From contig OZ024742.1 of NCBI GenBank assembly GCA_964016885.1, positions 93,000,001 through 93,064,000 of the forward strand: a stretch of 64,000 nt of DNA, given 5' to 3'. This stretch comes from Eledone cirrhosa (lineage: Eukaryota). A program made the position numbers and the translations under genes. The notes under the pieces are model-generated. The model did no database searches, was not told the origin of the DNA, and was given only the letters and a program-made list of their open reading frames with translations. The stretch's first letter is position 1; each line of letters starts with the position of its first letter. Below are positions 1-52,013 of the stretch, one piece after another.

Positions 1-3000
1 GCTGGATTACTAGATAACTAGATGGTTGTATGTCTGACTGGATAGTTGGCTGATTGACTGGCTGGCTGGATTACTAGATAACTAGATGGTTGTATGTCTG
101 ACTGGATAGTTGGCTGATTGACTGGCTGGCTGGATTACTAGATAACTAGATGGTTGTATGTCTGACTGGAGAGTTGGATGGTATGACTGGCTGGCTGGAT
201 TACTAGATAACTAGATGGTTGTATGTCTGACTGGATAGTTGGCTGGTATGACTGGCTGGCTGGATTACTAGATAACTAGATGGTTGTATCTCTGACTGGA
301 TAGTTGGCTGGTATGACTGGCTGGCTGAATTACTAGATAACTAAATGGTTGTATGTCTGACTGGATAGTTGGCTGATTGACTGGCTGGCTGGATTACTAG
401 ATAACTAGATGGTTGTATGTCTGACTGGATAGTTGGCTGGTATAACTGGCTGGATTACTAGATAACTAGATGGTTGTATGTCTGACTGGATAGTTGGATG
501 GTATGACTGGCTGGCTGGATTACTAGATAACTAGATGGTTGTATGTCTGACTGGATAGTTGGATGATTGACTGGCTGGCTGGATTACTAGATAACTAGAT
601 GGTTGTATGTCTGACTGGATAGTTGGATGATTGACTGGCTGGCTGGATTACTAGATAACTAGATGGTTGTATGTCTGACTGGATAGTTGGCTGATTGACT
701 GGCTGGCTGGATTACTAGATAACTAGATGGTTGTATGTCTGACTGGATAGTTGGATGGTATGACGGGTTTGCTGGATTACTAGATAACTAGATGGTTGTA
801 TGTCTGACTGGATAGTTGGCTGGTATGACTGGCTGGCTGGATACTAGATAACTAGATGGTTGTATGGCTGACTGGATTGTTGGCTGATTGACTGGCTGGC
901 TGGATTACTAGATAACTAGATGGTTGTATGTCTGACTGGATAGTTGGCTGATTGACTGGCTGGCTGCATTACTAGATAACTAGATGGTTGTATGTCTGAC
1001 TGGATAGTTGGCTGATTGACTGGCTGGATGGATTACTAGATAACTAGATGGTTGTATGTCTGACTGGATAGTTGGATGATTGACTGGCTGGCTATTACTA
1101 GATAACTAGATGGTTGTATATCTGACTGGATAGTTGGCTAGTATGACTGGCTGGCTGGATTACTAGATAACTAGATGGTTGTATGTCTGACTGGATAGTT
1201 GGCTGATTGACTGGCTGGCTGGATTACTAGATAACTAGATGGTTGTATGTCTGACTGGATAGTTGGCTGGTATGACTGGCTGGCTGGATTACTAGATAAC
1301 TAGATGGTTGTATGTCTGACTGGATAGTTGGCTGATTGACTGGCTGGCTGGATTACTAGATAACTAGAGGGTTGTATGTCTGACTGGAGAGTTGGATGGT
1401 ATGACTGGCTGGCTGGATTACTAGATAACTAGATGGTTGTATGTCTGACTGGATAGTTGGCTGGTATGACTGGCTGGCTGGATTACTAGATAACTAGATG
1501 GTTGTATGTCTGACTGGATAGTTGGCTGATTGACTGGCTGGCTGGATTACTAGATAACTAGATGGTTGTATCTCTGACTGGATAGTTGGCTGATTGACTG
1601 GCTGGCTGGATTACTAGATAACTAGATGGTTGTATGTCTGACTGGATAGTTGGCTGATTGACTGGCTGGCTGGATTACTAGATAACTAGATGGTTGTATG
1701 TCTGACTGGATAGTTGGCTGGTATAACTGGCTGGTTGGATTACTAGATAACTAGATGGTTGTATGTCTGACTGGATAGTTGGATGGTATGACTGGCTGGC
1801 TGGATTACTAGATAACTAGATGGTTGTATGTCTGACTGGATAGTTGGATGATTGACTGGCTGGCTGGATTACTAGATAACTAGATGGTTGTATGTCTGAC
1901 TGGATAGTTGGATGATTGACTGGCTGGCTGGATACTAGATAACTAGATGGTTGTATGTCTGACTGGATAGTTGGCTGATTGACTGGCTGGCTGGATTACT
2001 AGATGGTTGTATGTCTGACTGGATAGTTGGATGGTATGACTGGTTTGCTGGATTACTAGATAACTAGATGGTTGTATGTCTGACTGGATTGTTGCCTGAT
2101 TGACAGGCTGGCTGGATTACTAGATAACTAGATGGTTGTATGTCTGACTGGATAGTTGGCTAGGATGACTGGCTGGCTGGATTACTAGATAACTAGATGG
2201 TTGTATGTCTGACTGGATAGTTGGCTGATTGACTGGCTGGATTACTAGATAACTAGATGGTTGTATGTCTGACTGGATAGTTGGCTGGTAGGACTGGCTG
2301 GCTGGATTACTAGATAACTAGATGGTTGTATGTCTGACTGGATAGTTGGCTGGTATGACTGGCTGGCTGGATTACTAGATAACTAGATGGTTGTATGTCT
2401 GACTGGATAGTTGGCTGGTATGACTGGCTGGCTGGATTACTAGATAACTAGATGGTTGTATGTCTGACTGGATAGTTGGCTGGTATGACTGGCTGGCTGG
2501 ATTACTAGATAACTAGATGGTTGTATGTCTGACTGGATAGTTGGCTAGTATGACTGGCTGGCTGGATTACTAGATAACTAGATGGTTGTATGTCTGACTG
2601 GAGAGTTGGCTGGTATGACTGGCTGGCTGGATTACTAGATAACTAGATGGTTGTATGTCTGACTGGAGAGTTGGCTGGTATGACTGGCTGGTTGGATTAC
2701 TAGATAACTAGATGGTTGTATCTCTGACTGGATAGTTGGCTGATTGACTGGCTGGCTGGATTACTAGATAACTAGATGGTTGTATGTCTGACTGGATAGT
2801 TGGATGATTGACTGGCTGGCTGGATTACTATATAACTAGATGGTTGTATCTCTGACTGGATAGTTGGCTGATTGACTGGCTGGCTGGATTACTAGATAAC
2901 TAGATGGTTGTATCTCTGACTGGATAGTTGGCTGATTGACTGGCTGGCTGGATTACTAGATAACTAGATGGTTGTATGTCTGACTGGATAGTTAGATGAT

Positions 3001-6000
3001 TGACTGACTGGCTGGATTACTAGATAGCTAGATGGTTGTATGTCTGACTGGATAGTTGGCTGGTATAACTGGCTGGTTGGATTACTAGATAACTAGATGG
3101 TTGTATGTCTGACTGGATAGTTGGATGGTATGACTGGCTGGCTGGATTACTAGATAACTAGATGGTTGTATGTCTGACTGGATAGTTGGATGATTGACTG
3201 GCTGGCTGGATTACTAGATAACTAGATGGTTGTATGTCTGACTGGCTAGTTGGATGATTGACTGGCTGGCTGGATACTAGATAACTAGATGGTTGTATGT
3301 CTGACTGGATAGTTGGCTGATTGACTGGCTGGCCGGATTACTAGATAACTAGATGGTTGTATGTCTGACTGGATATTTGGATGGTATGACTGGTTTGCTG
3401 GATTACTAGATAACTAGATGGTTGTATGTCTGACTGGATTGTTGGCTGATTGACTGGCTGGCTGGATTACTAGATAACTAGATGGTTGTATGTCTGCCTG
3501 GATAGTTGGCTAGGATGACTGGCTGGCTGGAATACTAGATAACTAGATGGTTGTAAGTCTGACTGGATAGTTGGCTAGTATGACTGGCTGGCTGGATTAC
3601 TAGATAACTAGATGGTTGTATATCTGACTGGATAGTTGGCTAGTATGACTGGCTGGCTGGATTACTAGATAACTAGATAGTTGTATGTCTGACTGGATAC
3701 TTGGCTGATTGATGGGCTGGCTGGATTACTAGATAACTAGATGGTTGTGTCTGACTGGATAGTTGGCTGATTGACTGGCTGGCTGGATTACTAGATAACT
3801 AGATTGTTGTATGTCTGACTGGATAGTTGGCTAGTATGACTGGCTGGCTGGATTACTAGATAACTAGATGGTTGTATGTCTGACTGGATAGTTGGCTGGT
3901 ATGACTGGCTGGCTGGATTACTAGATATCTAGATGGTTGTATGTCTGACTGGATAGTTGGCTGGTATGACTGGCTGGCTGGATTACTAGATAACTAGATG
4001 GTTGTATGTCTGACTGGATTGTTGGTTGATTGACTGGCTGGTTGGATTACTAGATAACTAGATGGTTGTATGTCTGACTGGATAGTTGGCTGATATGACT
4101 GGCTGGCTGGATTACTAGATAACTAGATGGTTGTATGTCTGACTGGATAGTTGGCTGATTGATGGGCTGGCTGGATTACTAGATAACTAGATGGTTGTAT
4201 GTCTGACTGGATAGTTGGCTGATTGATGGGCTGGCTGGATTACTAGATAACTAGATGGTTGTATGTCTGACTGGATAGTTGGCTGGTATGACTGGCTGGC
4301 TGGATTACTAGATAACTAGATGGTTGTATGTCTGACTGGATAGTTGGCTGATATGACTGGCTGGCTGGATTACTAGATAACTAGATGGTTGTATGTCTGA
4401 CTGGATAGTTGGATGGTATGACTGGCTGGCTGGATTACTAGATAACTAGATGGTTGTATGTCTGACCGGAGAGTTGGCTGGTATGACTGGCTGGCTGGAT
4501 TACTAGATAACTAGATGGTTGTATGTCTGACTGGATAGTTGGCTAGTATGACTGGCTGGCTGGATTACTAGATAACTAGATGGTTGTATGTCTGACTGGA
4601 TAGTTGGATGGTATGACTGGCTGGCTGGATTACTAGATAACTAGATGGTTGTATGTCTGACTGGAGAGTTGGATGGTATGACTGGCAGGCTGGATTACTA
4701 GATAACTAGATGGTTGTATGTCTGACTGGATAGTTGGCTGATTGACTGGCTGGCTGGATTACTAGATAACTAGATGGTTGTATGTCTGACTGGATAGTTG
4801 GATGATTGACTGGCTGGCTGGATTACTAGATAACTAGATGGTTGTATCTCTGACTGGATAGTTGGCTGGTATGACTGGCTGGCTGGATTACTAGATAACT
4901 AAATGGTTGTATGTCTGACTGGATAGTTGGCTGATTGACTGGCTGGCTGGATTACTAGATAACTAGATGGTTGTATGTCTGACTGGATAGTTGGCTGGTA
5001 TGACTGGCTGGCTGGATACTAGATAACTAGATGGTTGTATGTCTGACTGGATTGTTGGCCGATTGACTGGCTGGCTGGATTACTAGATAACTAGATGGTT
5101 GTATGTCTGACTGGATAGTTGGCTATGATGACTGGCTGGCTGGAATACTAGATAACTAGATGGTTGTATGTCTGACTGGATAGTTGGCTGATTGACTGGC
5201 TGGCTGGATTACTAGATAACTAGATGGTTGTATATCTGACTGGATAGTTGGCTGATTGACTGGCTGGCTGGATTACTAGATAACTAGATGGTTGTATGTC
5301 TGACTGGAGAGTTGGATGGTATGACTGGCTGGTTGGATTACTAGATAACTAGATGGTTGTATGTCTGACTGGATATTTGGCTAGTATGACTGGTTGGCTG
5401 GATTACTAGATAACTAGATGGTTGTATGTCTGACTGGATAGTTGGCTGGTATGACTGGCTGGCTGGATTACTAGATAACTAGATGGTTGTATGTCTGACT
5501 GGATAGTTGGCTGATTGATGGGCTGGCTGGATTACTAGATAACTAGATGGTTGTATGTCTGACTGGATAGTTGGCTGGTATGACTGACTGGCTGGATTAC
5601 TAGATAACTAGATGGTTGTATGTCTGACTGGAGAGTTGGCTGATATGACTGGCTGGCTGGATTACTAGATAACTAGATGGTTGTATATCTGACTGGATAG
5701 TTGGCTAGTATGACTGGCTGGCTGGATTACTAGATAACTAGATGGTTGTATGTCTGACTGGATAGTTGGCTGATTGATGGGCTGGCTGGATTACTAGATA
5801 ACTAGATGGTTGTATGTCTGACTGGATAATTGGCTGATGGACTGGCTGGCTGGATTACTAGATAACTAGATGGTTGTATGTCTGACTGGATAGTTGGCTG
5901 ATTGACTGGCTGGATGGATTACTAGATAACTAGATGGTTGTATGTCTGACTGGATAGTTGGATGATTGACTGGCTGGCTGGATTACTAGATAACTAGATG

Positions 6001-9000
6001 GTTGTATATCTGACTGGATAGTTGGCTAGTATGACTGGCTGGCTGGATTACTAGATAACTAGATGGTTGTATGTCTGACTGGATAGTTGGCTGATTGACT
6101 GGCTGGCTGGATTACTAGATAACTAGATGGTTGTATGTCTGACTGGATAGTTGGCTGGTATGACTGGCTGGCTGGATTACTAGATAACTAGATGGTTGTA
6201 TGTCTGACTGGATAGTTGGCTGATTGACTGGCTGGCTGGATTACTAGATAACTAGATGGTTGTATGTCTGACTGGAGAGTTGGATGGTATGACTGGCTGG
6301 CTGGATTACTAGATAACTAGATGGTTGTATGTCTGACTGGATAGTTGGCTGGTATGACTGGCTGGCTGGATTACTAGATAACTAGATGGTTGTATGTCTG
6401 ACTGGATAGTTGGCTGATTGACTGGCTGGCTGGATTACTAGATAACTAGATGGTTGTATGTCTGACTGGATAGTTGGCTGATTGACTGGCTGGCTGGATT
6501 ACTAGATAACTAGATGGTTGTATGTCTGACTGGAGAGTTGGATGGTATGACTGGCTGGCTGGATTACTAGATAACTAGATGGTTGTATGTCTGACTGGAT
6601 AGTTGGCTGGTATGACTGGCTGGCTGGATTACTAGATAACTAGATGGTTGTATGTCTGACTGGATAGTTGCCTGATTGACTGGCTGGCTGGATTACTAGA
6701 TAACTAGATGGTTGTATCTCTGACTGGATAGTTGGCTGATTGACTGGCTGGCTGGATTACTAGATAACTAGATGGTTGTATGTCTGACTGGATAGTTGGC
6801 TGATTGACTGGCTGGCTGGATTACTAGATAACTAGATGGTTGTATGTCTGACTGGATAGTTGGCTGGTATAACTGGCTGGTTGGATTACTAGATAACTAG
6901 ATGGTTGTATGTCTGACTGGATAGTTGGATGGTATGACTGGCTGGCTGGATTACTAGATAACTAGATGGTTGTATGTCTGACTGGATAGTTGGATGATTG
7001 ACTGGCTGGCTGGATTACTAGATAACTAGATGGTTGTATGTCTGACTGGATAGTTGGATGATTGACTGGCTGGCTGGATACTAGATAACTAGATGGTTGT
7101 ATGTCTGACTGGATAGTTGGCTGATTGACTGGCTGGCTGGATTACTAGATAACTAGATGGTTGTATGTCTGACTGGATAGTTGGATGGTATGACTGGTTT
7201 GCTGGATTACTTGATAACTAGATGGTTGTATGTCTGACTGGATTGTTGGCTGATTGACTGGCTGGCTGGATTACTAGATAACTAGATGGTTGTATGTCTG
7301 ACTGGATAGTTGGCTAGGATGACTGGCTGGCTGGATTACTAGATAACTAGATGGTTGTATGTCTGACTGGAGAGTTGGCTGGTAGAACTGGCTGGCTGGA
7401 TTACTAGATAACTAGATGGTTGTATGTCTGATTGGAGAGTTGGCTGGTATGACTGGCTGGTTGGATTACTAGATAACTAGATGGTTGTATCTCTGACTGG
7501 ATAGTTGGCTGATTGACTGGCTGGCTGGATTACTAGATAACTCGATGGTTGTATGTCTGACTGGATAGTTGGCTGGTATAACTGGCTGGTTGGATTACTA
7601 GATAACTAGATGGTTGTATGTCTGACTGGATAGTTGGCTGATTGACTGGCTGGCTGGATTACTAGATAACTAGATGGTTGTATGTCTGACTGGATAGTTG
7701 GCTGATTGACTGGCTGGCTGGATTACTAGATAACTAGATGCTTGTATGTCTGACTGGATAGTTGGATGATTGACTGGCTGTCTGGATTACTAGATAACTA
7801 GATGGTTGTATGTCTGACTGGATAGTTGGCTGGTATGACTGGCTGGCTGGATTACTAGATAACTAGATGGTTGTATGTCTGACTGGATAGTTGGCTGATA
7901 TGACTGGCTGGCTGGATTACTAGATAACTAGATGGTTGTATGTCTGACTGGATAGTTGGCTGATTGATGGGCTGGCTGGATTACTAGATAACTAGATGGT
8001 TGTATGTCTGACTGGATAATTGGCTGATGGACTGGCTGGCTGGATTACTAGATAACTAGATGGTTGTATGTCTGACTGGATAGTTGGCTGATTGACTGGC
8101 TGGATGGATTACTAGATAACTAGATGGTTGTATGTCTGACTGGATAGTTGGATGATTGACTGGCTGGCTGGATTACTAGATAACTAGATGGTTGTATATC
8201 TGACTGGATAGTTGGCTAGTATGACTGGCTGGCTGGATTACTAGATAACTAGATGGTTGTATGTCTGACTGGATAGTTGGCTGATTGACTGGCTGGCTGG
8301 ATTACTAGATAACTAGATGGTTGTATGTCTGACTGGATAGTTGGCTGGTATGACTGGCTGGCTGGATTACTAGATAACTAGATGGTTGTATGTCTGACTG
8401 GATAGTTGGCTGATTGACTGGCTGGCTGGATTACTAGATAACTAGATGGTTGTATGTCTGACTGGAGAGTTGGATGGTATGACTGGCTGGCTGGATTACT
8501 AGATAACTAGATGGTTGTATGTCTGACTGGATAGTTGGCTGGTATGACTGGCTGGCTGGATTACTAGATAACTAGATGGTTGTATGTCTGACTGGATAGT
8601 TGGCTGATTGACTGGCTGGCTGGATTACTAGATAACTAGATGGTTGTATGTCTGACTGGATAGTTGGCTGATTGACTGGCTGGCTGGATTACTAGATAAC
8701 TAGATGGTTGTATGTCTGACTGGAGAGTTGGATGGTATGACTGGCTGGCTGGATTACTAGATAACTAGATGGTTGTATGTCTGACTGGATAGTTGGCTGG
8801 TATGACTGGCTGGCTGGATTACTAGATAACTAGATGGTTGTATGTCTGACTGGATAGTTGCCTGATTGACTGGCTGGCTGGATTACTAGATAACTAGATG
8901 GTTGTATCTCTGACTGGATAGTTGGCTGATTGACTGGCTGGCTGGATTACTAGATAACTAGATGGTTGTATGTCTGACTGGATAGTTGGCTGATTGACTG

Positions 9001-11725
9001 GCTGGCTGGATTACTAGATAACTAGATGGTTGTATGTCTGACTGGATAGTTGGCTGGTATAACTGGCTGGTTGGATTACTAGATAACTAGATGGTTGTAT
9101 GTCTGACTGGATAGTTGGATGGTATGACTGGCTGGCTGGATTACTAGATAACTAGATGGTTGTATGTCTGACTGGATAGTTGGATGATTGACTGGCTGGC
9201 TGGATTACTAGATAACTAGATGGTTGTATGTCTGACTGGATAGTTGGATGATTGACTGGCTGGCTGGATACTAGATAACTAGATGGTTGTATGTCTGACT
9301 GGATAGTTGGCTGATTGACTGGCTGGCTGGATTACTAGATAACTAGATGGTTGTATGTCTGACTGGATAGTTGGATGGTATGACTGGTTTGCTGGATTAC
9401 TTGATAACTAGATGGTTGTATGTCTGACTGGATTGTTGGCTGATTGACTGGCTGGCTGGATTACTAGATAACTAGATGGTTGTATGTCTGACTGGATAGT
9501 TGGCTAGGATGACTGGCTGGCTGGATTACTAGATAACTAGATGGTTGTATGTCTGACTGGAGAGTTGGCTGGTAGAACTGGCTGGCTGGATTACTAGATA
9601 ACTAGATGGTTGTATGTCTGACTGGAGAGTTGGCTGGTATGACTGGCTGGTTGGATTACTAGATAACTAGATGGTTGTATCTCTGACTGGATAGTTGGCT
9701 GATTGACTGGCTGGCTGGATTACTAGATAACTCGATGGTTGTATGTCTGACTGGATAGTTGGCTGGTATAACTGGCTGGTTGGATTACTAGATAACTAGA
9801 TGGTTTCTATGTCTGACTGGATAGTTGGCTGATTGACTGGCTGGCTGGATTACTAGATAACTAGATGGTTGTATGTCTGACTGGATAGTTGGCTGATTGA
9901 CTGGCTGGCTGGATTACTAGATAACTAGATGCTTGTATGTCTGACTGGATAGTTGGATGATTGACTGGCTGTCTGGATTACTAGATAACTAGATGGTTGT
10001 ATGTCTGACTGGATAGTTGGCTGGTATGACTGGCTGGCTGGATTACTAGATAACTAGATGGTTGTATGTCTGACTGGGTAGTTGGCTGATATGACTGGCT
10101 GGCTGGATTACTAGATAACTAGATGGTTGTATGTCTGACTGGATAGTTGGCTGATTGATGGGCTGGCTGGATTACTAGATAACTAGATGGTTGTATGTCT
10201 GACTGGATAGTTGGCTGGTATGACTGGCTGGCTGGATTACTAGATAACTAGATGGTTGTATGTCTGACTGGATAGTTGGCTGATATGACTGGCTGGCTGG
10301 ATTACTAGATAACTAGATGGTTGTATGTCTGACTGGATAGTTGGATGGTATGACTGGCTGGCTGGATTACTAGATAACTAGATGGTTGTATGTCTGACCG
10401 GAGAGTTGGCTGGTATGACTGGCTGGCTGGATTACTAGATAACTAGATGGTTGTATGTCTGACTGGATAGTTGGCTAGTATGACTGGCTGGCTGGATTAC
10501 TAGATAACTAGATGGTTGTATGTCTGACTGGATAGTTGGATGGTATGACTGGCTGGCTGGATTATTAGATAACTAGATGGTTGTATGTCTGACTGGAGAG
10601 TTGGATGGTATGACTGGCTGGCTGGATTACTAGATAACTAGATGGTTGTATGTCTGACTGGATAGTTGGCTGATTGACAGGCTGGCTGGATTACTAGATA
10701 ACTAGATGGTTGTATGTCTGACTGGATAGTTGGCTGTTATGACTGGCTGGCTGGATTACTAGATAACGAGATGGTTGTATGTCTGACTGGATAGTTGGCT
10801 GATTGACTGGCTGGCTGGATTACTAGATAACTAGATGGTTGTATGTCTGACTGGATAGTTGGCTGTTATGACTGGCTGTCTGGATTACTAGATAACTAGA
10901 TGGTTGTATGTCTGACTGGATAGTTGTCTGGTATGACTGGCTGTCTGGATTACTAGATAACTAGATGGTTGTATGTCTGACTGGATAGTTGGCTGGTATG
11001 ACTGGCTGGCTGGATTACTAGATAACTAGATGGTTGTATGTCTGACTGTATATTTGGATGATTGACTGGCTGGCTGGATTACTAGATAACTAGATGGTTG
11101 TATGTCTGACTGGATAGTTGGCTGATTGACTGGCTGGCTGGATTACTAGATAACTAGATGGTTGTATGTCTGACTGGATAGTTGGCTGATTGACTGGCTG
11201 GCTGGATTACTAGATAACTAGATGGTTGTATGTCTGACTGGATAGTTGGATGGTATGACTGGCTGGCTGGATTACTAGATAACTAGATGGTTGTATGTCT
11301 GACTGGATAGTTGGCTGGTATGACTGGCTGGCTGGATTACTAGATAACTAGATGGTTGTATGTCTGACTGGATAGTTGGCTGGTATGACTGGCTGGCTGG
11401 ATTACTAGATAACTAGATGGTTGTATGTCTGACTGGATAGTTGGCTGATTGACTGGCTGGCTGGATTACTAGATAACTAGATGGTTGTATGTCTGACTGG
11501 ATAGTTGGCTGATTGACTGACTGGCTGGATTACTAGATAACTAGATGGTTGTATGTCTGACTGGATAGTTGGCTGATTGACTGGCTGGCTGGATTACTAG
11601 ATAACTAGATGGTTGTATGTCTGACTGGATAGTTGGCTAGTAGGACTGGCTGGCTGGATTACTAGATAACTAGATGGTTGTATGTTTGACTGGATAGTTG
11701 GCTGATTGACTAGCTGGCTGGCTGT
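1..11725. repeat. Tandem satellite, 64/65-bp monomer (GGATTACTAGATAACTAGATGGTTGTATGTCTGACTGGATAGTTGGCT[GATT/GGTAT]GACTGGCTGGCT), about 180 copies, running off the left edge
   Basis: GGATTAC recurs at 4, 68, 132 and onward. Monomers are highly homogeneous, no ORFs are called, and the array decays into GGCT/GGAT tetramers at ~11700-11810. Confidence 0.98.
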
Positions 11726-16079: not shown

Positions 16080-16117
<38 letters not shown>

Positions 16118-16362
16118 AACATTTAGAAGAAACAAGGTGCTGTGTAGTTACTGATAACGTGTATTTAGAAATGAAAGGAAAGCACAAACAATGACAGGTT
16201 CCCTCTTCAGTTGTTTTCTGGGGGTCTCAGACGTTTCAGCGCATTAAAGACAATATGTCTATCCCCAGTGCATCAATAACTTACAAAGTTATTGGGAAGA
16301 GAAAAAAAGAGAGAAAATGAAGAAAAAAATATACCAAAGTTAAACCGGTGGCTGGGCATAAG

Positions 16363-16400
<38 letters not shown>

Positions 16401-16618
16401 GTTAAAAAATGTACATCTACATATGCATACTGAAATACTAGTGTGTATATGAATACACACACGTATACATATGTAGGTGTACCAAGTCTTTCACTGGTCG
16501 CTTTACAGTGAGCGGCCCAGCTATTCTGTATGTAAACACACAGACAAACCGGTTTTTAGAGTCATACTGGTTTTTAGGGGGAACACCTTCCCCCTATTCT
16601 CCAGAAAGCCAGACAAGG

Positions 16619-16663
16619 AATATTGAACTAGTTTCGTTGTTGTTACAACTCATCAGCAATATT
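16619..16663 (-). ncRNA. Minimal type I hammerhead ribozyme
   Basis: Exact reverse complement of 17064-17108. Confidence 0.85.
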
Positions 16664-17063
16664 TACCTATCTACCGGCCTTTCTGGAGAATTGTAAAAGC
16701 ACATATCGTTATATGCTTTTTCTATGAAAATTAGTAGTGGGCAGACCAATTTGCATAGAGTGTGAGTACGCACCGGTTCAGCGGAGACGATAAAAACAAA
16801 TAACGAAACGAAATTAAATTTCGTTTCGTTTGTAACTCACTTTTGTATGACTGACGCTTAAACAATTAAGTTAAAAATGTACAAAAGTGAGTTACAAACG
16901 AAACGAAATTTAATTTCGTTTCGTTATTTGTTTTTATCGTCTCCGCTGAACCGGTGCGTACTCACACTCTATGCAAATTGGTCTGCCCACTACTAATTTT
17001 CATAGAAAAAGCATATAACGATATGTGCTTTTACAATTCTCCAGAAAGGCCGGTAGATAGGTA

Positions 17064-17108
17064 AATATTGCTGATGAGTTGTAACAACAACGAAACTAGT
17101 TCAATATT
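17064..17108 (+). ncRNA. Minimal type I hammerhead ribozyme
   Basis: AAUAUUG-CUGAUGA-GUUGU(AACA)ACAAC-GAAA-CUAG-UU-CAAUAUU: 7-bp stem I, intact core, 5-bp stem II starting with G-C, palindromic stem III region AACUAGUU, GUU cleavage triplet. Confidence 0.85.
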
Positions 17109-17393
17109 CCTTGCTTTCTGGAGAATAGGGGGAAGGTGTTCCCCCGAAAAACCAGTATGACTCTAAAAACCGGTTTGTCTGTGTGTTTACATACAGAATA
17201 GCTGGGCCGCTCACTGTAAAGCGACCAGTGAAAGACTTGGTACACCTACATATGTATACGTGTGTGTATTCATATACACACTAGTATTTCAGTATGCATA
17301 TGTAGATGTACATTTTTAACTTAATTGTTTAAGCGTCAGACATACAAAAGTGAGTTACAAACGAAACGAAATTTAATTTCGTTTCGTTATTTG

Positions 17394-17432
<39 letters not shown>

Positions 17433-17435
<3 letters not shown>

Positions 17436-18746
17436 TCCCATCTGGGAAATGGCCATGCTCAGTGTGTAGGAAAGGAGTAGGCAGAAACTCCATTTTATGT
17501 CCCAAATGCAAAGTATGGGTGCATAAAAGATGTATTGGGATCACAGGTAAGCTAACTAAGAATATAGATTTTATATGTGGCCGGTGCTCTGGTGCAATAA
17601 GTAGCAGCAAGTGCCCACAGAATACTACCTCATTCCATTGCACAGATGGTTCTATAGAAATAGTGGACACCTTCTGTTACCTGGGTGACAAAATCAGCAG
17701 TGATGCAATAAATAGCTGCAAGTGCCCACAGAATACTAGCTTATTCCATTGCACAGATGGTTCTATAGAAATAGTGGACACCTTCCATTACCTGGGTGAC
17801 AAAATCAGCAGTGGTGGAGGGTGCTCTGAAAGTACAGTAGCTAGAGTTAGAATGGGATGGAAAAAGTTCAGAGAGCTTATACCACTATTGGCACTAAAGG
17901 GTTCTCTCTAAAAATGAAAGGCAGGCTGTATGATGCCTGCATACGAACAGCAATGTTACATGGCAGTGAGACTTGGGCATTGTGTGCAGAGGATATACGC
18001 AGACTGGAGAGGAACGAAGCTTGCATGCTCCACTGGATGTGTAATAGTAATATACGTGAACGGCAAAGCATAAATGAACTAAGGGAGAAATTAGGAATAA
18101 GAGGGAACAGATGTTGTTTACTTGAGAGAAAACTACGTTGGTACGGTTACGTGATGCGCATAAAAGACGACAGCTGTATAAAAAAAGTGCAGGGCGATAA
18201 AAATAGACGGTAGCCACGGAGTAGGCAGACCCAGAAAAACCTGGGACGGCTTGATAAATTCTGACCTCACACACACCTCTCCAAGACAATGTCACTGGAC
18301 CGAGATCTTTGGTGCTACACAGTAATACAGAAGACCCGCCTTGCCTAAGTACAAAGCGAAACCTACAGTCAGTAGGCACCTCTAACAAAAATACACCCTC
18401 GTCCAACTACCCCCATCCCATCCCATCCACACCACCCCTTTCAATGTAAAGTTATGTTGGTACCACAACATCCAGTCCGAAACAAATGAGGCGTGTAGGT
18501 GTCACGACAAAAAAACACAGTCCACGCTGTAATGTGACCGTGTAGGTAACACGGTAAAAACCTCCTGGTCCACACTGTAAACATGGTTGGTGTTAGGAAG
18601 GGCATCCAGCCGTAGAAAACCCGCCAGACAGTCCTATGCGAGCAAGACAACAACCACTCTTGCCTCAAGTGGGAAAACTCCCGTCCAAACCCATGCAAGC
18701 GTGGAAGATGGACATTAAACGATGATGATGATGATGATGATGATGA
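17433..18746 (+). mobile_element. 5'-truncated RTE-clade LINE (C-terminal ORF remnant with PHD-like finger, 3'UTR, (GAT)n tail)
   Basis: ORF pieces CSVCRKGVGRNSILCPKC..WVHKRC..FICGRC, VDTFxYLGD, LHGSETW, RKLRWYG; frameshifted; ends GGACATTAAAC(GAT)n. Confidence 0.9.
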
Positions 18747-20169: not shown

Positions 20170-21445
20170 CATCACCATCGTTTAACGTCCATCTTCCACG
20201 CTTGCATGGGTTTGGACGGGAATTTTGCCACTTGAGGCAAGATTGGTTGACTTGCTCGCATAGGACTGTCTGGCGGGTTTTCTATGGCTGGATGCCCTTC
20301 CTAACACCAATCACGTTTACAGTGTGGACTGGGAGGTTTTTTCGTGTTACCTATACGGCCACATTACAGCGTGGACTGTGTGTTTTTTTGTCGTGACACC
20401 TACACGACCTCATTTGTTTCGGCCTGGATGTTGTGGTACCAACATAACTTTACAGGGTGGTGTGGATGAGGTGGGGTAGTGGGACGGGGGTGTATTTTTG
20501 TTACAGGTGCCTACTGACTGTAGGTTTCGCTTTGTACTTAGGCAAGGCGGGTCTTCTGTATTACTGTGTAGCGCCAAAGATCTCGGTCCAGTGACATTGT
20601 CTTGGAGAGGTGTAAGTGTGTGAGGTCAGAATTTATCAAGTTGTCCCAGGTTTTTCTGGGTCTGCCTACCCGTGGCTACGGTCTATTTTTATTGCCCTGC
20701 ACTTTTTTATACAGCTGTCGTCTTTCATGCGCATCACGTGACCGTACCAACATAGTCTTCTCTCGAGTAAACAACATCTGATCCCTCTTATTCCTAATTT
20801 CTCCCTTAGTTCGTTTATGCTTTGCCGTTCACATATATTAATATTACACATACAGCGGAGCATGCAAGCTTCGTTCCTCTCCAGTCTGCGTATATCCTCT
20901 GCACACAATGCCCAAGTCTCACTGCCATGTAACATTGCTGTTCGTATGCAGGCATCATACAGCCTGCTTTTCATTTTTAGAGAGAACCCTTTAGTGGCCA
21001 ATAGTGGTATAAGCTCTCTGAACTTTTTCCATCCCATTCTAACTCTAGCTACTGTACTTTCAGAGCACCCTCCACCACTGCTGATTTTGTCACCCAGGTA
21101 ATGGAAGGTGTCCACTATTTCTATAGAACTATCTGTGCAATGGAATAAGCTAGTATTCTGTGGGCACTTGCAGCTACTTATTGCATCACTGCTGATTTTG
21201 TCACCCAGGTAACAGAAGGTGTCCACTATTTCTATAGAACCATCTGTGCAATGGAATGAGGTAGTATTCTGTGGGCACTTGCTGCTACTTATTGCACCAG
21301 AGCACCGGCCACATATAAAATCTATATTCTTAGTTAGCTTACCTGTGATCCCAATACATCTTTTATGCACCCATACTTTGCATTTGGGACATAAAATGGA
21401 GTTTCTGCCTACGCCTTTCCTAACAATGAGCATGGCCATTTCCCA
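20170..21445 (-). mobile_element. 5'-truncated RTE-clade LINE, inverted partner of 17433-18746
   Basis: 266-aa ORF 20666-21466 with the same motifs, the same internal duplication and the same 3'UTR. Confidence 0.9.
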
Positions 21446-21456
21446 TATATATATAT

Positions 21457-21797
21457 GGAGGCACATGGCTTAGTGGTTAGAGCATTGGCCTTGCAATCGA
21501 AAGGTTGTGAGTTCAATTCTCAGACCGGGTGATGTGTTGTTTCCTTGAGCAAGACACTTTATTTCACATTGCTCCAGTTTACTCAGCTGTAGAAATGAGA
21601 TGATAGGGACTGGGGTCCATATCATTCCACTGCAAAGTGGTCGTGGAGGTGCCACGGCAAAAAAGCACCCAGCACTCACTGTAAATGAGGTTGGTGTTAG
21701 GAAGGGCATCCAGCTGTAGAAATCAAGCCAGAATCAGTTCCCGTCCCACCCTTGCAAGCAGGGAAAAGCGGACGTAAAATGATGATGATGATGATGA

Positions 21798-21800
<3 letters not shown>
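21457..21800 (+). mobile_element. tRNA-derived CORE-type SINE with RTE-derived tail, full length
   Basis: A-box TGGCTTAGTGG, B-box GAGTTCAATTC, core-like TTCCTTGAGCAAGACACTTTATTTCAC, tail GTTAGGAAGGGCATCCAGC...GGACGTAAAAT(GAT)n. Confidence 0.92.
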
Positions 21801-21838
<38 letters not shown>

Positions 21839-21867
21839 TGTAATAAACAAAATAAGATAATTATTTC

Positions 21868-21978
21868 ATTTACCAGTGGTTTCTTGAAAGCAAACAAATC
21901 TGCTTTCAGTCATCAGAATCTCTGAATTTACCAGTGGTTTCTTGAAACCAAACAAATCTGCTTTCAGCCATCAGAATC
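21868..21978 (-). ncRNA. Tandem pair of hammerhead ribozyme motifs (58-nt period)
   Basis: Minus strand reads GAUU-CUGAUG(G/A)-CUGAAAGCAGA(UUUG)UUUG(G/C)UUUCAA-GAAA-CCACUGG-UA-AAU twice. Confidence 0.7.
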
Positions 21979-21984
21979 TCAGAA

Positions 21985-22036
21985 TTTCTGATGACTGAAA
22001 GCAGATTTGTTTGCTTTCAAGAAACCACTGGTAAAT
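21985..22036 (+). ncRNA. Hammerhead ribozyme motif (stem I clipped by the inversion junction)
   Basis: CUGAUGA, 10-bp stem II UGAAAGCAGA/UUUGCUUUCA, GAAA, CC(ACU)GG, GUA triplet. Confidence 0.7.
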
Positions 22037-22554
22037 GAAATAATTATCTTATGTTGTTTATTACATAACTACTAAGCTCTGTAACCTACATAGAGCACTC
22101 TTTTTTCCTGGACCTTTCCGACGGAATTACTTCATTTATATATACACACACATATATAGCAATTATTTGATATCTTGAGCAAGTATCTAAAAGACACTTG
22201 CTCAAGATATCAAATAATTGGATGGAACCCAGTACCTCATGTTGTGAAATGAACTTCTTAGCCACTAAGTTATGTGTGTGTCACTGCTCACATACACAGA
22301 TATGCCCACAAACACATTTACACATACACACATACACATTCACTCACACACATATACACATGCATACACACTCATACTCACACATGTCACATACACACAC
22401 ATACACATAGACACATGCACATATATACACACATATATATATACAGATGCTGACAGATAAACATATGCACATGTACATATACACATACACATTTATACAC
22501 ATACATACAAAATATGTGTATGTATATGACATATTGTTTAGGTAATATGTGTGT

Positions 22555-33504: not shown

Positions 33505-33542
<38 letters not shown>

Positions 33543-33546
<4 letters not shown>

Positions 33547-34510
33547 AATTAAGTTAAAAATGTACATCTACATATGCATACTGAAATACTAGTATGCATA
33601 TGAATACACACACGTATACATATGTAGATGTACCAAGTCTTTCACTGGTTACTTTACTGTGAGTATCCAGCTATTCTGTATGTAAACACACAGACAAACC
33701 GGTTTTTAGAGTCATACTGGTTTTTGAGGAAACACCTTTCCTCTATTCTCCAGAAAGCCAGACAAGGAATATTGAACTAGTTTCGTTGTTGTTACAACTC
33801 ATCAGCAATATTTACCTATCTACCGGCCTTTCTGGAGAATCGTAAAAGCACATATCGTTATATGCTTTTTCTATGAAAATTAGTAGTGGGCAGACTAATT
33901 TGCATAGAGTGTGAGTACGTACCGGTTCAACGGAGACGATAAAAACAAATAACGAAACGAAATTAAATTTCGTTTCGTTTGTAACTCACTTTTGTATGAC
34001 TGACGCTTAAACAATTAAGTTAAAAATGTACATCTACATATGCATACTGAAATACTAGTATGCATATGAATACACACACGTATACATATGTAGATGTACC
34101 AAGTCTTTCACTGGTTACTTTACTGTGAGTATCCAGCTATTCTGTATGTAAACACACAGACAAACCGGTTTTTAGAGTCATACTGGTTTTTGAGGAAACA
34201 CCTTTCCTCTATTCTCCAGAAAGCCAGACAAGGAATATTGAACTAGTTTCGCTGTTGTTACGACTCGTTATGACTCTAAAAACCGTTTGTCTGTGTGTTT
34301 ACATACAGAATAGCTGGATACTCACAGTAAAGTAACCAGTGAAAGACTTGGTACATCTACATATGTATACGTGTGTGTATTCATATGCATACTAGTATTT
34401 CAGTATGCATATGTAGATGTACATTTTTAACTTAATTGTTTAAGCGTCAGTCATACAAAAGTGAGTTACAAACGAAACGAAATTTAATTTCGTTTCGTTA
34501 TTTGTTTTTA
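33543..34510. mobile_element. (TA)n-flanked Penelope-like non-autonomous element, family A, copy 2 (tandem plus inverted units)
   Basis: 466-bp unit 33543-34008, a partial direct repeat 34009-34268, then an inverted arm 34269-34510 ending at the same terminus as copy 1. Confidence 0.85.
33768..33812 (-). ncRNA. Minimal type I hammerhead ribozyme
   Basis: Identical to 16619-16663. Confidence 0.85.
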
Positions 34511-34796
34511 TATATATATATATATATATATAACAAAATATAAACAAACGATAAGGATAAATATATATCAAATATATAAGACCCCCTAGAGAAAATCCCG
34601 AGCAACGCCAGGACATTCTGCTAGTAGTTTTTAAAACATTTAAGAATTGTGAGTTATTTTACCAAATTTCTCCAATGGTAAACAATAGGTGAGATAACTC
34701 TATTATTAAGCTGGTGTTTTGAGTATAACTGAAGAAAGTTTCTTATACATAATGTAGTGTCATTCATTAGAAATAAGGCAATAAAAAGGTTAAAGC

Positions 34797-43399: not shown

Positions 43400-46300
43400 T
43401 TTACAGACAGATACTCAGAGTAGGCCCATTCACACGGGCCATACTTGCTTCTTTCACCTATCTTTCAACAAAATGCTGGGAAGGGAGCACTTCTCTCTCT
43501 ACCCTGATTTTCCTTTTCAAATGAAATTTGAAAAAGTTAAACAGGGCATCACTGAAGAGGTAAGTGCTCGTCTTTAGCCCTTTCAAAGGTGTCCACCATA
43601 CTATCTCTTTCGCCATGGCCACCAGACAGATAAAAACTGCCTGCCCTTCCCGGCTAAAGGAAGTGGGCGGGGCAATCCTCACGATGGACTACACGTGACA
43701 GCAGGTGTTCAACATAAACCCACAAGTCAGCAATGTTCGGACACTGGACGAGTGCGAGCAGGACGGTTTCGTCGCCCTGCACGCATCTCGGATATGCCCG
43801 GCTGACGGCACCTCCATGCCTGTAGAGTTTATCCCGAACTGGAAAAGCTCCTCGGTAGCACTGCAAGGCCAGGGATTTCTGGAAGTTGTCCATAGGCCCC
43901 GACCCGAAAGTCCTTCCAAAGAGATTGGCTAGTTGATTTTCGTCGACGCCTAGAGTTTCTCCAAGTACGTCGTCGCTCTTCCCCTCCACTAATCCTCTAT
44001 AGAACGCCAAGGTGGAGTTTCCACCGATCACATTGCCCGATTGGTCGAGGGCTGTGAGCGCCTGAAGACATTCCAGTCTCCAAGCGCTCCCTCTCGGTCT
44101 TCGCTTGACCCAGGACTGCAGCTCCGTCAAGGAGACGAGCTGGGGGAAGACGTGTCTAGTAAACGGCGACCACACCTGATCACCGTCGAGGAAGAGGTGG
44201 AGATGTCGTGGCCTGAGCGCGTGTCTGCGCATCATCAGCCACGGCATGACCAGCCCTCCACGTAGCGGGTGTTGACAGCAGATGGACCGCCTGACCATCG
44301 GAGCGCATCCCTTCCACAAAAATCAAAAGAGCAAACGCTCCAGCGCAGTCAGGCGGGGCTTAGGACAAGGTACGATGGTTAGGCGGTAGTAGATGACGGA
44401 CGCGATGTACGCGTTGGCCACCTCCGCTCGACCTTTCAGGGATAGCTTCCTCTCCGCCCATTTCTGAGTGAGGGAAGCCACCCTGCTCGTCACCTCGTCC
44501 CAGTTTTTGTCCGTCTGGAGGTCCGGACCGAACCAGACTCCTAGCAATTTAACCAGTCCATCCGTCCAGCGCCCGACGACGCTGTTGGACGGCATGGACC
44601 TGCCTCTCCGGGTGTCGAGCTGCAGGCCCACTGACTTTTCCTGGTTGATCATTGCTCCGGACACCGCTTCGTATTCTCTTAGTGTAGTGCCGATCGCCTC
44701 GATGTGTTTGGCGTTCGACACCACTACAGTGACATCGTCCGCATATGCTGACACGGATCTTCCGCATCCTAGTTCGCGCGGGACCCCCCTCAACGTCTCC
44801 AGTGTGTGTGTAGTAATGGCTCGAGAGTCAATACGTACAAGAGGGACGAGAGGGGACATCCTTGGCAGACCGAGCGCATGATGTTGAACGGTTCCGAAAT
44901 GTGACCGTTCACTCTCACCACAGAGCAGATATTGCTGTGCATGGCAGCAATCCAGCCTCTGAAGATGGGCCCAAAGCCAGCCGCCCTCAGGACTGCCGCT
45001 AGGTAACGATGGTCGACCCTATCGAAAGCTTTCGACTGATCTAAATTGATCAAGGACCCACCCGTGCCAGGTTCCCTAGCTACCCTCTCTACGATGTATC
45101 GCATGAGGTGGAGGTTGTCGTGGATGGATCTGTCGGGAATGGCGCACGTCTGCGTCTCTCCCACCAGACCACCAATGACAAGCGCCAACCTCTTTGCTAG
45201 CACCTTGGCCAAAATCTTGAACTCGGTGTTTAGCAAGTTACAGGCCTGAAATTATCTATGTTATCCCCCTTGTTCGGATCCTTTCTCAGCAGCGCCACAG
45301 CTCCTCGGCTCACAGAGCTGGGAATTCTCCCATTCTGTTGCCAGTTGCAGTAGACATCCGCCAAGAGGCCTCCGAACAAGTCTGGCATCTGTACGTAAAG
45401 TTCATAGGGCAGACCATCCAAACCAGGTGATTTACCCCTTGTGCAGCCAGTCATTGCCTCCCTTACTTCAGCGGCTGTTATCGGCTTTTCGCAACACTCC
45501 GCCTCAGTGGCCGAGAGTCGCGGCAGTCCGTCGAGGTAGACACTAAAGTCCATCCCTCGATCCGGCCCGCCGCTGCCCCCGCACAGCTGTGCGAAGTGTC
45601 GCTGAAAAGCTTCACACATTTGCCCGGGATCGAGTAGCATGCGCCCGTCGTGGTCCACCAAAGACCGGATCGTGGCTTTGTTGCCACGACGCGCCTCCGC
45701 CACTCGGGCCCATTGAACAGCTTTCGTCCCCTCGTGTCTGAGAGCACGCACCCTAGCTCTGACAACGCAGCCTTCGTGCTTTTTGCAATGAAGAATTGGT
45801 CAAGGGCCAATTTCGCCGCAAGTACGTCGGTCGCGATGCCTTTGCTAAGCGTCTCGGCTAATTTTCTAACTAATTCTCCCTCTGCTCTATTTTTTTTCTA
45901 TTGCTAAAGCCTTACTAAACCTAATGGACTCTATTATAATTGCTCTTTTCAGAGCAAACCACCACTTGTTGTTCACAATGGCCCCCGTCAACGCCCGCTT
46001 AACTAGTTCACTAATCCGGTCTCTGTAGGCCTTGCACGCTGGTAAGGACGCGTTTAGCTTCCAGTAACCGAGTCCTCGTCTATGAAGCCTATCTAAGTCA
46101 AGCACACACATCACGAATTTGTCGTCTGTGTAGCTGACTATCTTGAATTGTGGACAGCCTATGCTAGACCTATCTATTTCCCTACAAAATACTCTATCTA
46201 GACATGATCTGGATGACCCTATGCGATTTGTCCAAGTCCACATTGGCACATTCGGGAAATCCAATCGGTACCTGTCAGACAGTTCAAAACGCCTGAGCAG

Positions 46301-46800
46301 GTTGGTGAGGCTCTTGCACCCTCCTCCCCTATGCGCTGATCCCACACAGTCCCAGCGTGCATCTAAGATCCCGTTCCAGTCGCCCACTAACACTAAAGAG
46401 CGGGACGTTCCAAGAAAGGTCTCCAGACGCCGGAAGAAATCAGGTCGCCCTGCTCCTGTCGGGGCATAGACGGCCACTAGCCTGAAAGCTTGCCCGTCTC
46501 CGCTGGTCACGTCTAGCACCACCAACTTACCTTCTGGGTCCAGGAAGATGGCCCATATGGCGAGATCCAAACCTCTCCGAAAAAGCACAGCAACTCCTCC
46601 CCCGATCCCAGACGGCTGGGAGATGCGTACACATCGTAGCCGCCGAAGATCGGTGGGAAGGCCCATGCTTCGAAGATTCTGGTCTCGCTGATGGCCACTA
46701 CATCTATGTTTAGTGACCTGAGGTCGTTGAGCAGGTGGCTCTGCTTCCATGATGACCCCAAGCCACGCGCATTTATGCTGCCTATTCTGAGTGAGGTCAT
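43400..46800 (-). pseudogene. LINE ORF2 (APE + RT + Zn knuckle), frameshifted
   Basis: Consecutive ORF-track pieces 46513-46800, 45887-46834, 45230-45751, 44790-45236, 44323-44859, 43654-44319 and 43458-43682. Confidence 0.93.
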
Positions 46801-46834
46801 GTTGAAATGGAGTGGAAAAGATGGGAAAGACCAC

Positions 46835-47997
46835 TTACCTTACTTCTCGTAGAGGAAGGATGGTTTGTCCATCCTTTTCACTGCCTGTGGCCTCCTCCAG
46901 AAGGATGTCCTTATAAATCCTCCTGGAGAGTGTTTGTCGGAAGTCTCCGATGTCTTTGGGGAATTTTTGTTTTAGTGTCGTGTACGTTTTCTGTGTGGTG
47001 CGAGTGATTTGTATGTGTGGAGGTGGTGTGAACTTTTGGGTTGTTGTGTAGTCTTTTTCTGTGATGCTGGTGTTGTGTTGGATGTAGTGTAATAATTGGT
47101 TGTTGTTCAAATTTAATGCTGTGTAATGTGTATCGTTTTGGTTGTTTTGTTTTGTTTGCGTTTGTTGTGGGTTTGTTTCTGTTTCGCTTTTTGGTGACTT
47201 TTGTGGTGTTGGTGAAGGTGGTGTTGGGGTTAATGATGGTGATGGTGTTGGTGTTTGTGGTGATGGGGTTGGTGATGCTGGTGTGGATGGTGGCATATCT
47301 GTCCTAACTTTTTTGTTTGATAGTTTATTTGTTTCCCTCTGTATTTTGTTTTTGGAGGGGGAGGGAGTCTCTGGCCACAATAGCTTGGGACGAGTGTGAA
47401 GTCGTCACTTCTTAATGGGGCCATGGAGTGTTCTCTCGCCTCCTGTGGTGTTTCAAAGAACACGTCCACGGTTCCATATTTCTGCCCACGTCTGATCTGG
47501 ATTTTTTTTGCCCACACATATCCCCAAGCTTTCTGGATTTGGGACTCGGATGCCCGTTCCACTCGGCGCGATTTTATATTAATTGTTCGATAAGACACGG
47601 TGCATAGGCGCCGATGTTCCATTTTATTAGGGGGGCTCACCCTGTATCCATCTCTCTTTACCATTTTTTTGGCTTCTTCTAATTCCTCCTGAGTTACCTG
47701 AAATGCTTTGCACTGTTTTGCTACTCTGGCAAAACTCAGGGTGGTTTTCTTAATGTCATTGTTGCTGTTGTTGTTATCGTTATTTTTGTTATTATTAATT
47801 TTAGTTTCAGTTGTGGTGGTGGTGGCGTCAGTGGTGTTCGGTGTGGAAGAGTTCATTTTGGTTGAATTCATTTCGATATCACGAGTTAATTTATTTTTTT
47901 CTTTTGTTTCTGTTGTCGCTGTGGTGGTGGTGGGGGTGGCGGCTTTAACACCTGCAGTCATTGATAATGGCGGGAAATGAATGTCTGCCTGAGACAA
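46835..47997 (-). pseudogene. LINE ORF1 with internal deletion and frameshift near 47380
   Basis: RRM-like KYGTVDVFFET...LVPSYCG is homologous to element 2, but the segment with the CCHC knuckle is missing. Confidence 0.8.
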
Positions 47998-48685
47998 ATT
48001 TAAAATATTGCTACTGCTTATATTTTTAGTGTTGCAAACGTAGTAATATTTACAATGGTGGTGTCGGTGTGAGGTGTTAGTTTGTGAGGAAGGCTCTCAG
48101 CTACTGAGTCGGCCATGATTTTTCAAAGGAAATTTTTTTTTTTTCTTTGATAATTATAAAAAGTTTAAATTTTGGGCTCAAGGCCCCATCTTTTTGAGTG
48201 TCCTTTTCAGAAATCAATGTATGTGCACTTATATCCAGTTAACAATAAAAAATTTCCATAAATGGCAATTTTAAACAACTGAAAATAACAAACATTTGCG
48301 GAGCTCACGATGATATGATTTACTACGTAGGTCGCCAATAGTAATAGTAATAATAATAATAATAATAATGATTTCTTTATTGGTCACAAGGGCTGACGTC
48401 AAGAAAAACATTACAGACGGCACAAGACGGTACGATGTGGGTTTTGTGCGTGTAAATATTTTTATTATTTATATAAGAAAAGAGAAAAAAAAAGGACATA
48501 AAATATATATATATATATATATAAACAATAAAAATGAAAATTGAAACAATGAAAAATTCCCCAATAGGCGGGAAACCTCCGAGGGTTACTCGTGGCGAAA
48601 ACCACACAAAAGACCAAGGCCACCCTGACCACTAGGGCAAGCGCCCTCTCTCAATTTTTCCATCTCTCAAACTACAGACGTATAT

Positions 48686-51981: not shown

Positions 51982-52013
51982 GTTGGATGAGAAACGGGGC
52001 AAGTGAGAAAGGG

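What the first reader, a model, noticed from the sequence alone, without database searches (positions are those of the whole stretch)
21833..22138. Compact element with a tandem hammerhead dimer plus a third inverted copy
Seen: a 58-nt unit consisting of essentially only a hammerhead occurs twice in tandem on the minus strand (21868-21978) and once on plus (21985-22036). It has CUGAUGA, a 10-bp stem II preceded by a C.A mismatch, GAAA, a short CC-ACU-GG stem III, a GUA triplet and a 3-4-bp stem I. One tandem copy has CUGAUGG. Inference: the adjacent copies could form an intramolecular dimeric hammerhead that compensates for the weak stems I and III.
Basis: partly seen in the sequence, partly recalled or inferred. 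Interest (0 to 1): 0.75.

Follow-up and report, generated by a model that had tools for sequence, protein, structure and literature searches.

The report
Retrotransposon stub with accidental hammerhead duplication
This is the cut-down, folded-back end of a common jumping gene that carries a known type of predicted self-cutting RNA; the back-to-back pair of those RNA motifs was found only at this one spot in the genome and is likely a copying accident rather than a working two-part ribozyme.

Summary
The three hammerhead motifs are real. They belong to a 306-bp, 5'-truncated end of a Penelope-like retrotransposon (Hydra clade by protein motifs) lying in (TA)n, with a 5' inverted arm and a 65-67-nt tail. 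The family has at least 2,285 exact hammerhead half-motif matches. Longer copies link it to a broken RT/endonuclease ORF, and a sister subfamily has intact 710-aa ORFs with hammerheads about 4.3 kb apart. Family hammerheads have a 7-bp stem I (78 of 96 scored); the 2-4-bp stem I here comes from truncation. The 58-nt tandem junction matched once in 3.0 Gb, is bounded by ATTT microhomology, and its middle copy has a core change (A9G) and a broken stem II. An isolated tandem is predicted to swap helix III (P 0.7-0.87) but not to form the inner stem I. Any read-through RNA is predicted to fold into a 93-bp hairpin about 77 kcal/mol below the dimer. Dimeric Penelope hammerheads are published, and this scan reported Hydra-clade hammerheads before on other DNA of this genome. 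Cleavage is untested. Verdict: ordinary; low interest.

The parts
21800..21834 (.). (TA)n tract, left side of the insertion target
   Evidence: 17.5 perfect copies; family ends abut TA/CA tracts
21833..21919 (-). Inverted 5' arm: left hammerhead copy with intact core, 3-bp stem I, predicted cut between 21871 and 21870, ending at the family's short 3' end
   Evidence: 1 difference in 86 nt from the plus arm; 46 of 117 family hits end at this point
21920..21925 (.). First joint; non-family spacer that replaces the normal 5' strand of stem I
   Evidence: unique in the assembly; bridged by one contig of run X1
21926..21983 (-). Middle copy of the 58-nt tandem duplication: CUGAUGG (A9G, 21968), G.G mismatch in stem II (21948), 4-bp stem I; ATTT microhomology at 21868-71, 21926-29 and 21984-87
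21977..21985 (.). Fold-back joint between the minus copies and the plus arm (5' truncation point inside stem I)
   Evidence: 9 nt between the 51-nt arms; other fold-backs at or near the same place in L024, L089, L002 and
21986..22036 (+). Plus-strand hammerhead of the pseudo-LTR: CUGAUGA 21988-21994, 10-bp stem II, GAA, helix III ACCA-C-UGGU, predicted cut between 22033 and 22034; only 2 bp of stem I left
   Evidence: the family form has UUUCAUU paired with AAUGAAA
22037..22071 (+). Rest of the pseudo-LTR up to the short 3' end
22072..22138 (+). Penelope-type 'tail' (65-67 nt) up to the long 3' end; in the intact sister element this sequence runs on into the 5' leader and the ORF
   Evidence: 54 of 117 family hits end here; L071 5393-5551 continues to an ATG at 5667
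22139..22159 (.). TA/CA microsatellite, right side of the target

Best explanation
The 306 bp are the 5'-truncated, folded-back end of a Penelope-like retrotransposon with Hydra-clade protein motifs in its longer copies, and the 58-nt tandem is likely a one-off microhomology duplication at the fold-back joint that is predicted not to work as a ribozyme dimer. Shown: family membership, the link to an RT/endonuclease ORF, two fixed 3' ends, (TA)n flanks, a 7-bp stem I in most family copies, uniqueness of the joint, ATTT microhomology. Inferred: the element's enzyme nicked a (TA)n tract and began reverse transcription at the long end; copying stopped inside stem I of the hammerhead and folded back, making the inverted arm that stops at the short end; then, during insertion or later, slippage between two ATTT words 58 nt apart duplicated the loop-side part of the arm, and the middle copy gathered two substitutions. 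In intact elements the hammerhead likely cleaves as a helix-III-swapped dimer between successive pseudo-LTRs or two RNAs; this stub is likely inert.
For: Copies 97-99% identical over the plus arm, 1,013 candidates of which 40 scored. None of 29 other top loci has the 58-nt tandem; 19 of 29 have an inverted hammerhead arm with loops of varying length. 713 exact matches of the form with the full stem I 5' strand. 100 of 117 hits in 67 loci end at one of two points, and 78 of 96 scorable copies have a stem I of 7 bp or more (60 of 78 after dropping the 8 loci picked by a pattern that demands it). L034, L035 and L072 carry ORF, 3' region and this hammerhead in one orientation. A sister subfamily (84% identical over hammerhead and tail) has intact ORFs, with direct hammerhead pairs about 4.1-4.4 kb apart in 9 of 15 loci fetched. 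Its protein folds at pLDDT 94 and the top 9 PDB matches are telomerase RTs. Hydra-clade motifs RWK, DKT, CxCX5C, CxxC-E, N-CxH are present, with no Cys between the GIY- and YIG-like motifs. Tandem joint: 1 match each; only this locus spans it among 40 scored of 926 candidates. Read-through RNA: active dimer 77 kcal/mol above the hairpin.
Against: The order of events is inferred from one sequence. The isolated tandem does favour swapped helix III, and the inner core of such a dimer would be made of unmutated parts. Exact patterns miss tandems with substitutions in the probe, and one other short tandem exists (91-nt period, different joint, second copy cut off before GUA), plus a 418-bp direct pair in L036. 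The X1 contig that bridges the first joint leaves the assembly sequence after 21956, which is unexplained. Clade placement rests on motifs, not on a tree with reference elements. No copy of the focal subfamily with an intact ORF was found; L072 is frameshifted and 89% identical to the sister ORF. Pfam gives no RT or GIY-YIG hit on the sister ORF itself; one of 8 homologs scanned has a GIY-YIG hit.
Confidence: 0.88

Rival explanations
1. The tandem, though born by accident, can cleave as an intramolecular dimer when transcribed alone: the damaged middle copy lends its GUA strand to the intact core of the left copy.
For: Swapped helix III P 0.70-0.87 in short constructs; the dimer fold is 7.5 kcal/mol (exact structures) or 2.9 kcal/mol (relaxed) better than two monomers. 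Dimeric and trimeric Penelope hammerhead constructs showed low cleavage where the monomer showed none (PMC4209133).
Against: Inner stem I P below 0.001, because CUGAUGA pairs with the spacer; swap drops to 0.02 when the RNA runs to 21833 and to 0 when it starts at 22036 or beyond. It would need a start site within about 30 nt of the joint; no RNA evidence was obtained.
Confidence: 0.07
2. The 58-nt unit is a selected minimal retrozyme or hammerhead satellite that spreads on its own.
For: Non-LTR retrozymes are tandem type I hammerhead repeats and are proposed to derive from Penelope pseudo-LTRs (bioRxiv 10.64898/2026.07.22.740005, abstract and part 1).
Against: One locus, two units, one mutated; published units are 150-450 bp and often multimeric (PMC7229834 passages).
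Confidence: 0.02
3. The tandem or its second joint is an assembly error at a palindrome.
For: No listed contig spans the whole stretch; 21970-22015 had no cover at 97% likeness; the bridging contig departs after 21956.
Against: The first joint and the 21948 variant are matched letter for letter by that contig; the copies differ at 3 of 58 places; 21924-21975 has low, single-copy-like depth (15-21) in X1 at 90% likeness.
Confidence: 0.04

Closest known systems
Hydra clade of C-terminal EN+ Penelope-like elements, e.g. Hydra-1_Obim and Penelope-13_HM (Craig et al. 2021, PMC8557442; seen: passages, Introduction, section 11, supplement part 2 of 59)
   Same: Protein motifs RWK, DKT, CxCX5C, CxxC/CxH around E and N, no CCHH; (TA)n target; type I hammerhead near the 3' end with a near-palindromic helix III (listed as acca-a-tggt for Hydra-1_oBim, acca-c-tggt here); 5'-truncated inverted copy with a hammerhead on both strands (Penelope-13_HM); tail at one end only.
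   Different: Unit about 4.3 kb with a microsatellite-rich 3' region (published ones under about 3 kb); tail 65-67 nt rather than 30-40; stem II 10 bp; this locus has no ORF and carries a local 58-nt duplication. Sequence similarity to the published elements was not tested.
Minimal/dimeric hammerheads of metazoan Penelope pseudo-LTRs (Cervera and de la Pena 2014, PMC4209133, parts 1-2 of 4 read; Lunse et al., RNA Biol 14:1499, seen only as a reference and through review passages in PMC6765202)
   Same: Type I fold, long helix II, extra unpaired base between position 9 and helix II, weak palindromic helix III thought to work by dimer swap; opposite-strand pairs 100-700 bp apart and many solo truncated copies are described there.
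   Different: Family stem I is 7 bp (longer than the 4-5 bp given for the S. mansoni motifs); G10.1-C11.1 is replaced by U-A after a C/A mismatch; the published tandem partners are kilobases apart, not 58 nt.
Poseidon element PAc of Anolis (Frangieh et al. 2024, PMC11167929, parts 1-2 of 4 read)
   Same: Two fixed ends that define the tail, AT-rich target, hammerhead just upstream of the ORF start.
   Different: There the ORF starts inside the hammerhead, cleavage was protein-assisted and not needed for insertion; here the ORF of the sister element starts about 270 nt after the core; nothing was assayed here.
Animal non-LTR retrozymes (PMC7229834, passages; bioRxiv 10.64898/2026.07.22.740005, part 1 of 5)
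   Same: Head-to-tail type I hammerheads that may act as dimers.
   Different: Units of 150-450 bp in multi-copy families, expressed as circles; here one 58-nt duplication inside an inverted arm.

Membership tests
Type I hammerhead motif | Core CUGANGA...GAA...UH with three helices, ends in stem I | tested here: met
   Left and plus copies have the full core; middle copy has A9G. The family monomer's minimum-energy fold is the hammerhead.
Type I hammerhead motif | Stems kept by compensatory change | tested here: inconclusive
   12 related copies: 95.8% of cells paired, 5 of 20 pairs with two-sided change, 9 of 500 shuffles as high; the rows are related and were hand-picked, helix III is invariant.
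Type I hammerhead motif | Self-cleavage | not testable with these tools
   No assay; no RNA reads of this organism obtained.
Rfam hammerhead families | Covariance-model match | tested here: not met
   No hammerhead family at gathering score or at E up to 10.
Penelope-like element (EN+) | Single ORF with telomerase-like RT | tested here: met
   In longer copies, not in the window: sister ORF folds like TERT; focal-subfamily L072 keeps the motifs but is frameshifted.
Penelope-like element (EN+) | C-terminal GIY-YIG endonuclease | tested here: inconclusive
   VVY...YVG motif at 578-600; Pfam GIY-YIG hit in 1 of 8 homologs, none on the ORF itself; domain not folded and searched alone.
Penelope-like element (EN+) | Pseudo-LTRs with hammerheads, partial tandems, 5' inverted copy, tail | tested here: met
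Hydra clade | RWK, DKT, CxCX5C, CxxC and CxH, no CCHH | tested here: met
   All in P0001; among 118 aligned proteins DKT 114, CxCX5C 117, RWK 87; none has two Cys between the motifs. L072 has GWK in place of RWK.
Hydra clade | (TA)n insertion | tested here: met
Hydra clade | Length under about 3 kb | tested here: not met
   Hammerhead-to-hammerhead unit 4.1-4.4 kb in the sister subfamily; the paper says 'generally short'.
Hydra clade | Placement in an RT tree with reference elements | not tested
   Reference proteins were not available as tool sequences.
Non-LTR retrozyme | Multi-copy family of tandem 150-450-bp units with a hammerhead in each | tested here: not met
   58-nt joint unique; one unrelated 91-nt tandem.
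Non-LTR retrozyme | Expressed as circular RNA | not testable with these tools
   No RNA run with more than 0.08 of the words.

The most novel reading that the evidence does not exclude
The locus catches the birth of a hammerhead-only repeat: a Penelope fold-back joint has produced a 58-nt head-to-tail unit, far shorter than described retrozyme units, that cleaves as a compact intramolecular dimer in which a catalytically damaged copy serves as substrate and helix-III partner for an intact one.
Probability: 0.04. Interest if true: 0.5.

Novelty: new member of a known kind. Interest (0 to 1): 0.12.

Why it matters
As it stands it matters little: it is one of thousands of stubs of a known kind of retrotransposon, and dimer action of such hammerheads is published. 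Its use is as an example that short stems and close tandems seen in a single copy can be scars of truncation and fold-back. The intact sister subfamily (full ORF, hammerheads 4.3 kb apart) would be a better object for testing whether Hydra-clade hammerheads cleave as dimers. If the 58-nt tandem did cleave, it would show how a retrozyme-like unit can arise in one step from a Penelope end.

Tried and rejected
Rfam: no hammerhead model matches; miRNA hits reflect the palindrome only. Pfam and PDB sequence searches on the ORF gave nothing significant; the fold search settled the RT. Naiad clade was considered and dropped: the endonuclease-like motifs are C-terminal and a normal-order hammerhead is present. 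MITE/DNA transposon reading dropped: arms are unequal, loops vary from 0 to kilobases and can hold the ORF, ends follow the two-end tail pattern. X4 and X21 gave no cover of the joints, which proves nothing. A short motif from the loose end of the X1 contig is not in the window. The tblastn of the ORF against the window found nothing. A literature search for the effect of A9G gave no relevant paper, so that A9 is needed for fast cleavage is recalled; only its place in the conserved core is documented in the papers read. The Lunse et al. paper is not held. Supplements of PMC4209133 and PMC7229834 were not opened and could list similar motifs.

Full report
Observation. The window lies at G000:C3:93000001-93064000 in a 3.0-Gb microsatellite-rich genome. 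The reported repeats are there: a 58-nt direct pair at 21868-21925 and 21926-21983 (95%), inside a larger 93-bp inverted repeat (21833-21925 with 21979-22071, 97%). A descriptor scan finds three type I hammerhead motifs with stem I of 3, 4 and 2 bp; the middle one has CUGAUGG and a G.G mismatch in stem II. Both ends of the 306 bp abut TA tracts. Rfam gives no hammerhead hit.

The family. The plus arm has 1,013 candidate matches, 40 scored, at 97-99% identity; the 3' half of the hammerhead has 2,285 exact matches and the form with the full 5' strand of stem I has 713, controls 0. In 29 other top loci none has the 58-nt tandem and 19 have an inverted hammerhead arm with a loop of variable length. 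Over 67 loci (117 hits at 88% identity or more), 46 hits end at the point where the window's inverted arm ends and 54 where its plus arm ends. Stem I is 7 bp or more in 78 of 96 scorable copies; 8 of the loci were picked by a pattern that demands this, and without them it is 60 of 78. The sample leans to close relatives and to contig C1. The short stem I in the window is therefore loss of the upstream strand at the truncation point. Fold-backs at or near the same place recur with other spacers.

The parent element. Inverted hammerhead pairs kilobases apart were fetched. L034 and L035 hold an ORF end, a 3' region and this hammerhead in one orientation, and L072 holds nearly the whole, frameshifted ORF upstream of a hammerhead 95% identical to the window's. 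A protein search gave many open frames of 714 codons. Of 15 loci fetched around such hits, 13 belong to a sister subfamily 84% identical over hammerhead and tail, and 9 show direct hammerhead pairs 4.1-4.4 kb apart. There the sequence runs on past the long end into the ORF, so 22072-22138 is the Penelope 'tail'. The sister protein has 1,507 relatives at E 0.001 or better, nearly all unnamed; Pfam and PDB sequence searches miss it, but its model (pLDDT 94) matches telomerase RTs in the top 9 ranks. It carries the motifs that Craig et al. give for the Hydra clade: RWK 41, DKT 118, CxCX5C 559, CxxC-E 662, N-CxH 684, and no two Cys between VVY and YVG in any of 118 aligned proteins. Their File S2 lists Hydra hammerheads of the same build, and File S1 notes a 5'-truncated inverted copy in Penelope-13_HM. 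No tree was built.

The tandem. Two exact patterns across the joint match once each, at this locus; a DNA search finds only this locus spanning it among 40 scored of 926 candidates. A wider gap finds one other short tandem, of 91-nt period, with a different joint and a second copy cut before GUA; L036 has a 418-bp direct pair. The duplicated 58 nt are bounded by ATTT at 21868, 21926 and 21984, the mark expected of slippage or template switching (inference). The left and plus copies are identical over 51 nt; the middle copy differs at 2. One contig of run X1 bridges the first joint without a difference and then leaves the assembly sequence after 21956; the second joint was not covered at 97% likeness, and the stretch has single-copy-like depth at 90%. 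This departure is unexplained.

Can it act as a dimer? An intact family monomer folds as a hammerhead and two co-fold into the swapped dimer, -37.6 against 2 x -14.3 kcal/mol. For this locus, the isolated tandem swaps helix III with P 0.70-0.87 in short constructs, but the inner stem I has P below 0.001 in all 40 constructs, the swap falls to about 0.02 when the RNA runs to 21833, and to 0 once it includes the opposite arm from 22036 on. The active dimer is 9.5 kcal/mol above the minimum in isolation and 77 above it in read-through RNA. The outer core would also carry A9G; that this harms cleavage is recalled, and a search found no paper on it. Covariation among 12 hand-picked related copies is modest and inconclusive.

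Earlier notes of this scan. My reading was written down before the look-up. Nothing was noted near this place or on this sequence. Several unchecked notes describe Hydra-clade hammerhead stubs elsewhere in this genome; notes on permuted Naiad hammerheads concern another motif. A paper search for octopus, hammerhead ribozyme and Penelope returned only Craig et al.; I make no claim that this family is absent from print.

Verdict. Real motif, known kind of element, one-off duplication, likely inert. Interest 0.12.

Noticed in passing
window 16115-17400 and 33517-34511: A second hammerhead family (CUGAUGA, 4-bp stem II, ACUAGU palindromic helix III, GUU site, 7-bp stem I) at 16619-16663 (-), 17064-17108 (+) and 33768-33812 (-), in a large fold-back element set in (TA)n; the two loci are 93-96% alike. 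Likely another Penelope-like family.
   Followed up: partly
L071 3878-3975 (and the same place in 12 of 13 sister loci): The intact sister element carries a second hammerhead-like motif about 400 bp after its ORF, with CUGAAGA and a GUG triplet in place of GUH, so each unit has one normal and one likely non-cleaving copy 1.1-1.6 kb apart.
   Followed up: partly
window 22160-22220: A 29-bp near-perfect hairpin right of the element; its right arm begins another repeat with 86 candidates, so it looks like a further fold-back stub.
   Followed up: partly
window 21455-21800: A roughly 350-bp SINE-like repeat ending in (GAT)n sits in the same TA tract; at least three more copies of 94-95% identity lie in the window and one inside L072.
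   Followed up: no
window 20669-21469 (-) and 17430-18000 (+): LINE-like ORF fragments with a 111-bp tandem duplication in each, in opposite orientation about 3.5 kb apart.
   Followed up: no
window 21956, run X1: The contig that bridges the first joint continues with 34 letters unlike the window; possibly another allele or a later insertion.
   Followed up: partly
window 22074-22096: A 7-bp hairpin just behind the short 3' end is predicted in both the window and the sister element; no matching second hairpin in register behind the long end was evident in one fold.
   Followed up: partly
window 1-11721: A 65-bp satellite of about 182 copies with strong GC skew.
   Followed up: no
window 43657-52893 (-): GC-rich stretch with several LINE-like reading frames (endonuclease- and RT-like pieces by eye).
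   Followed up: no
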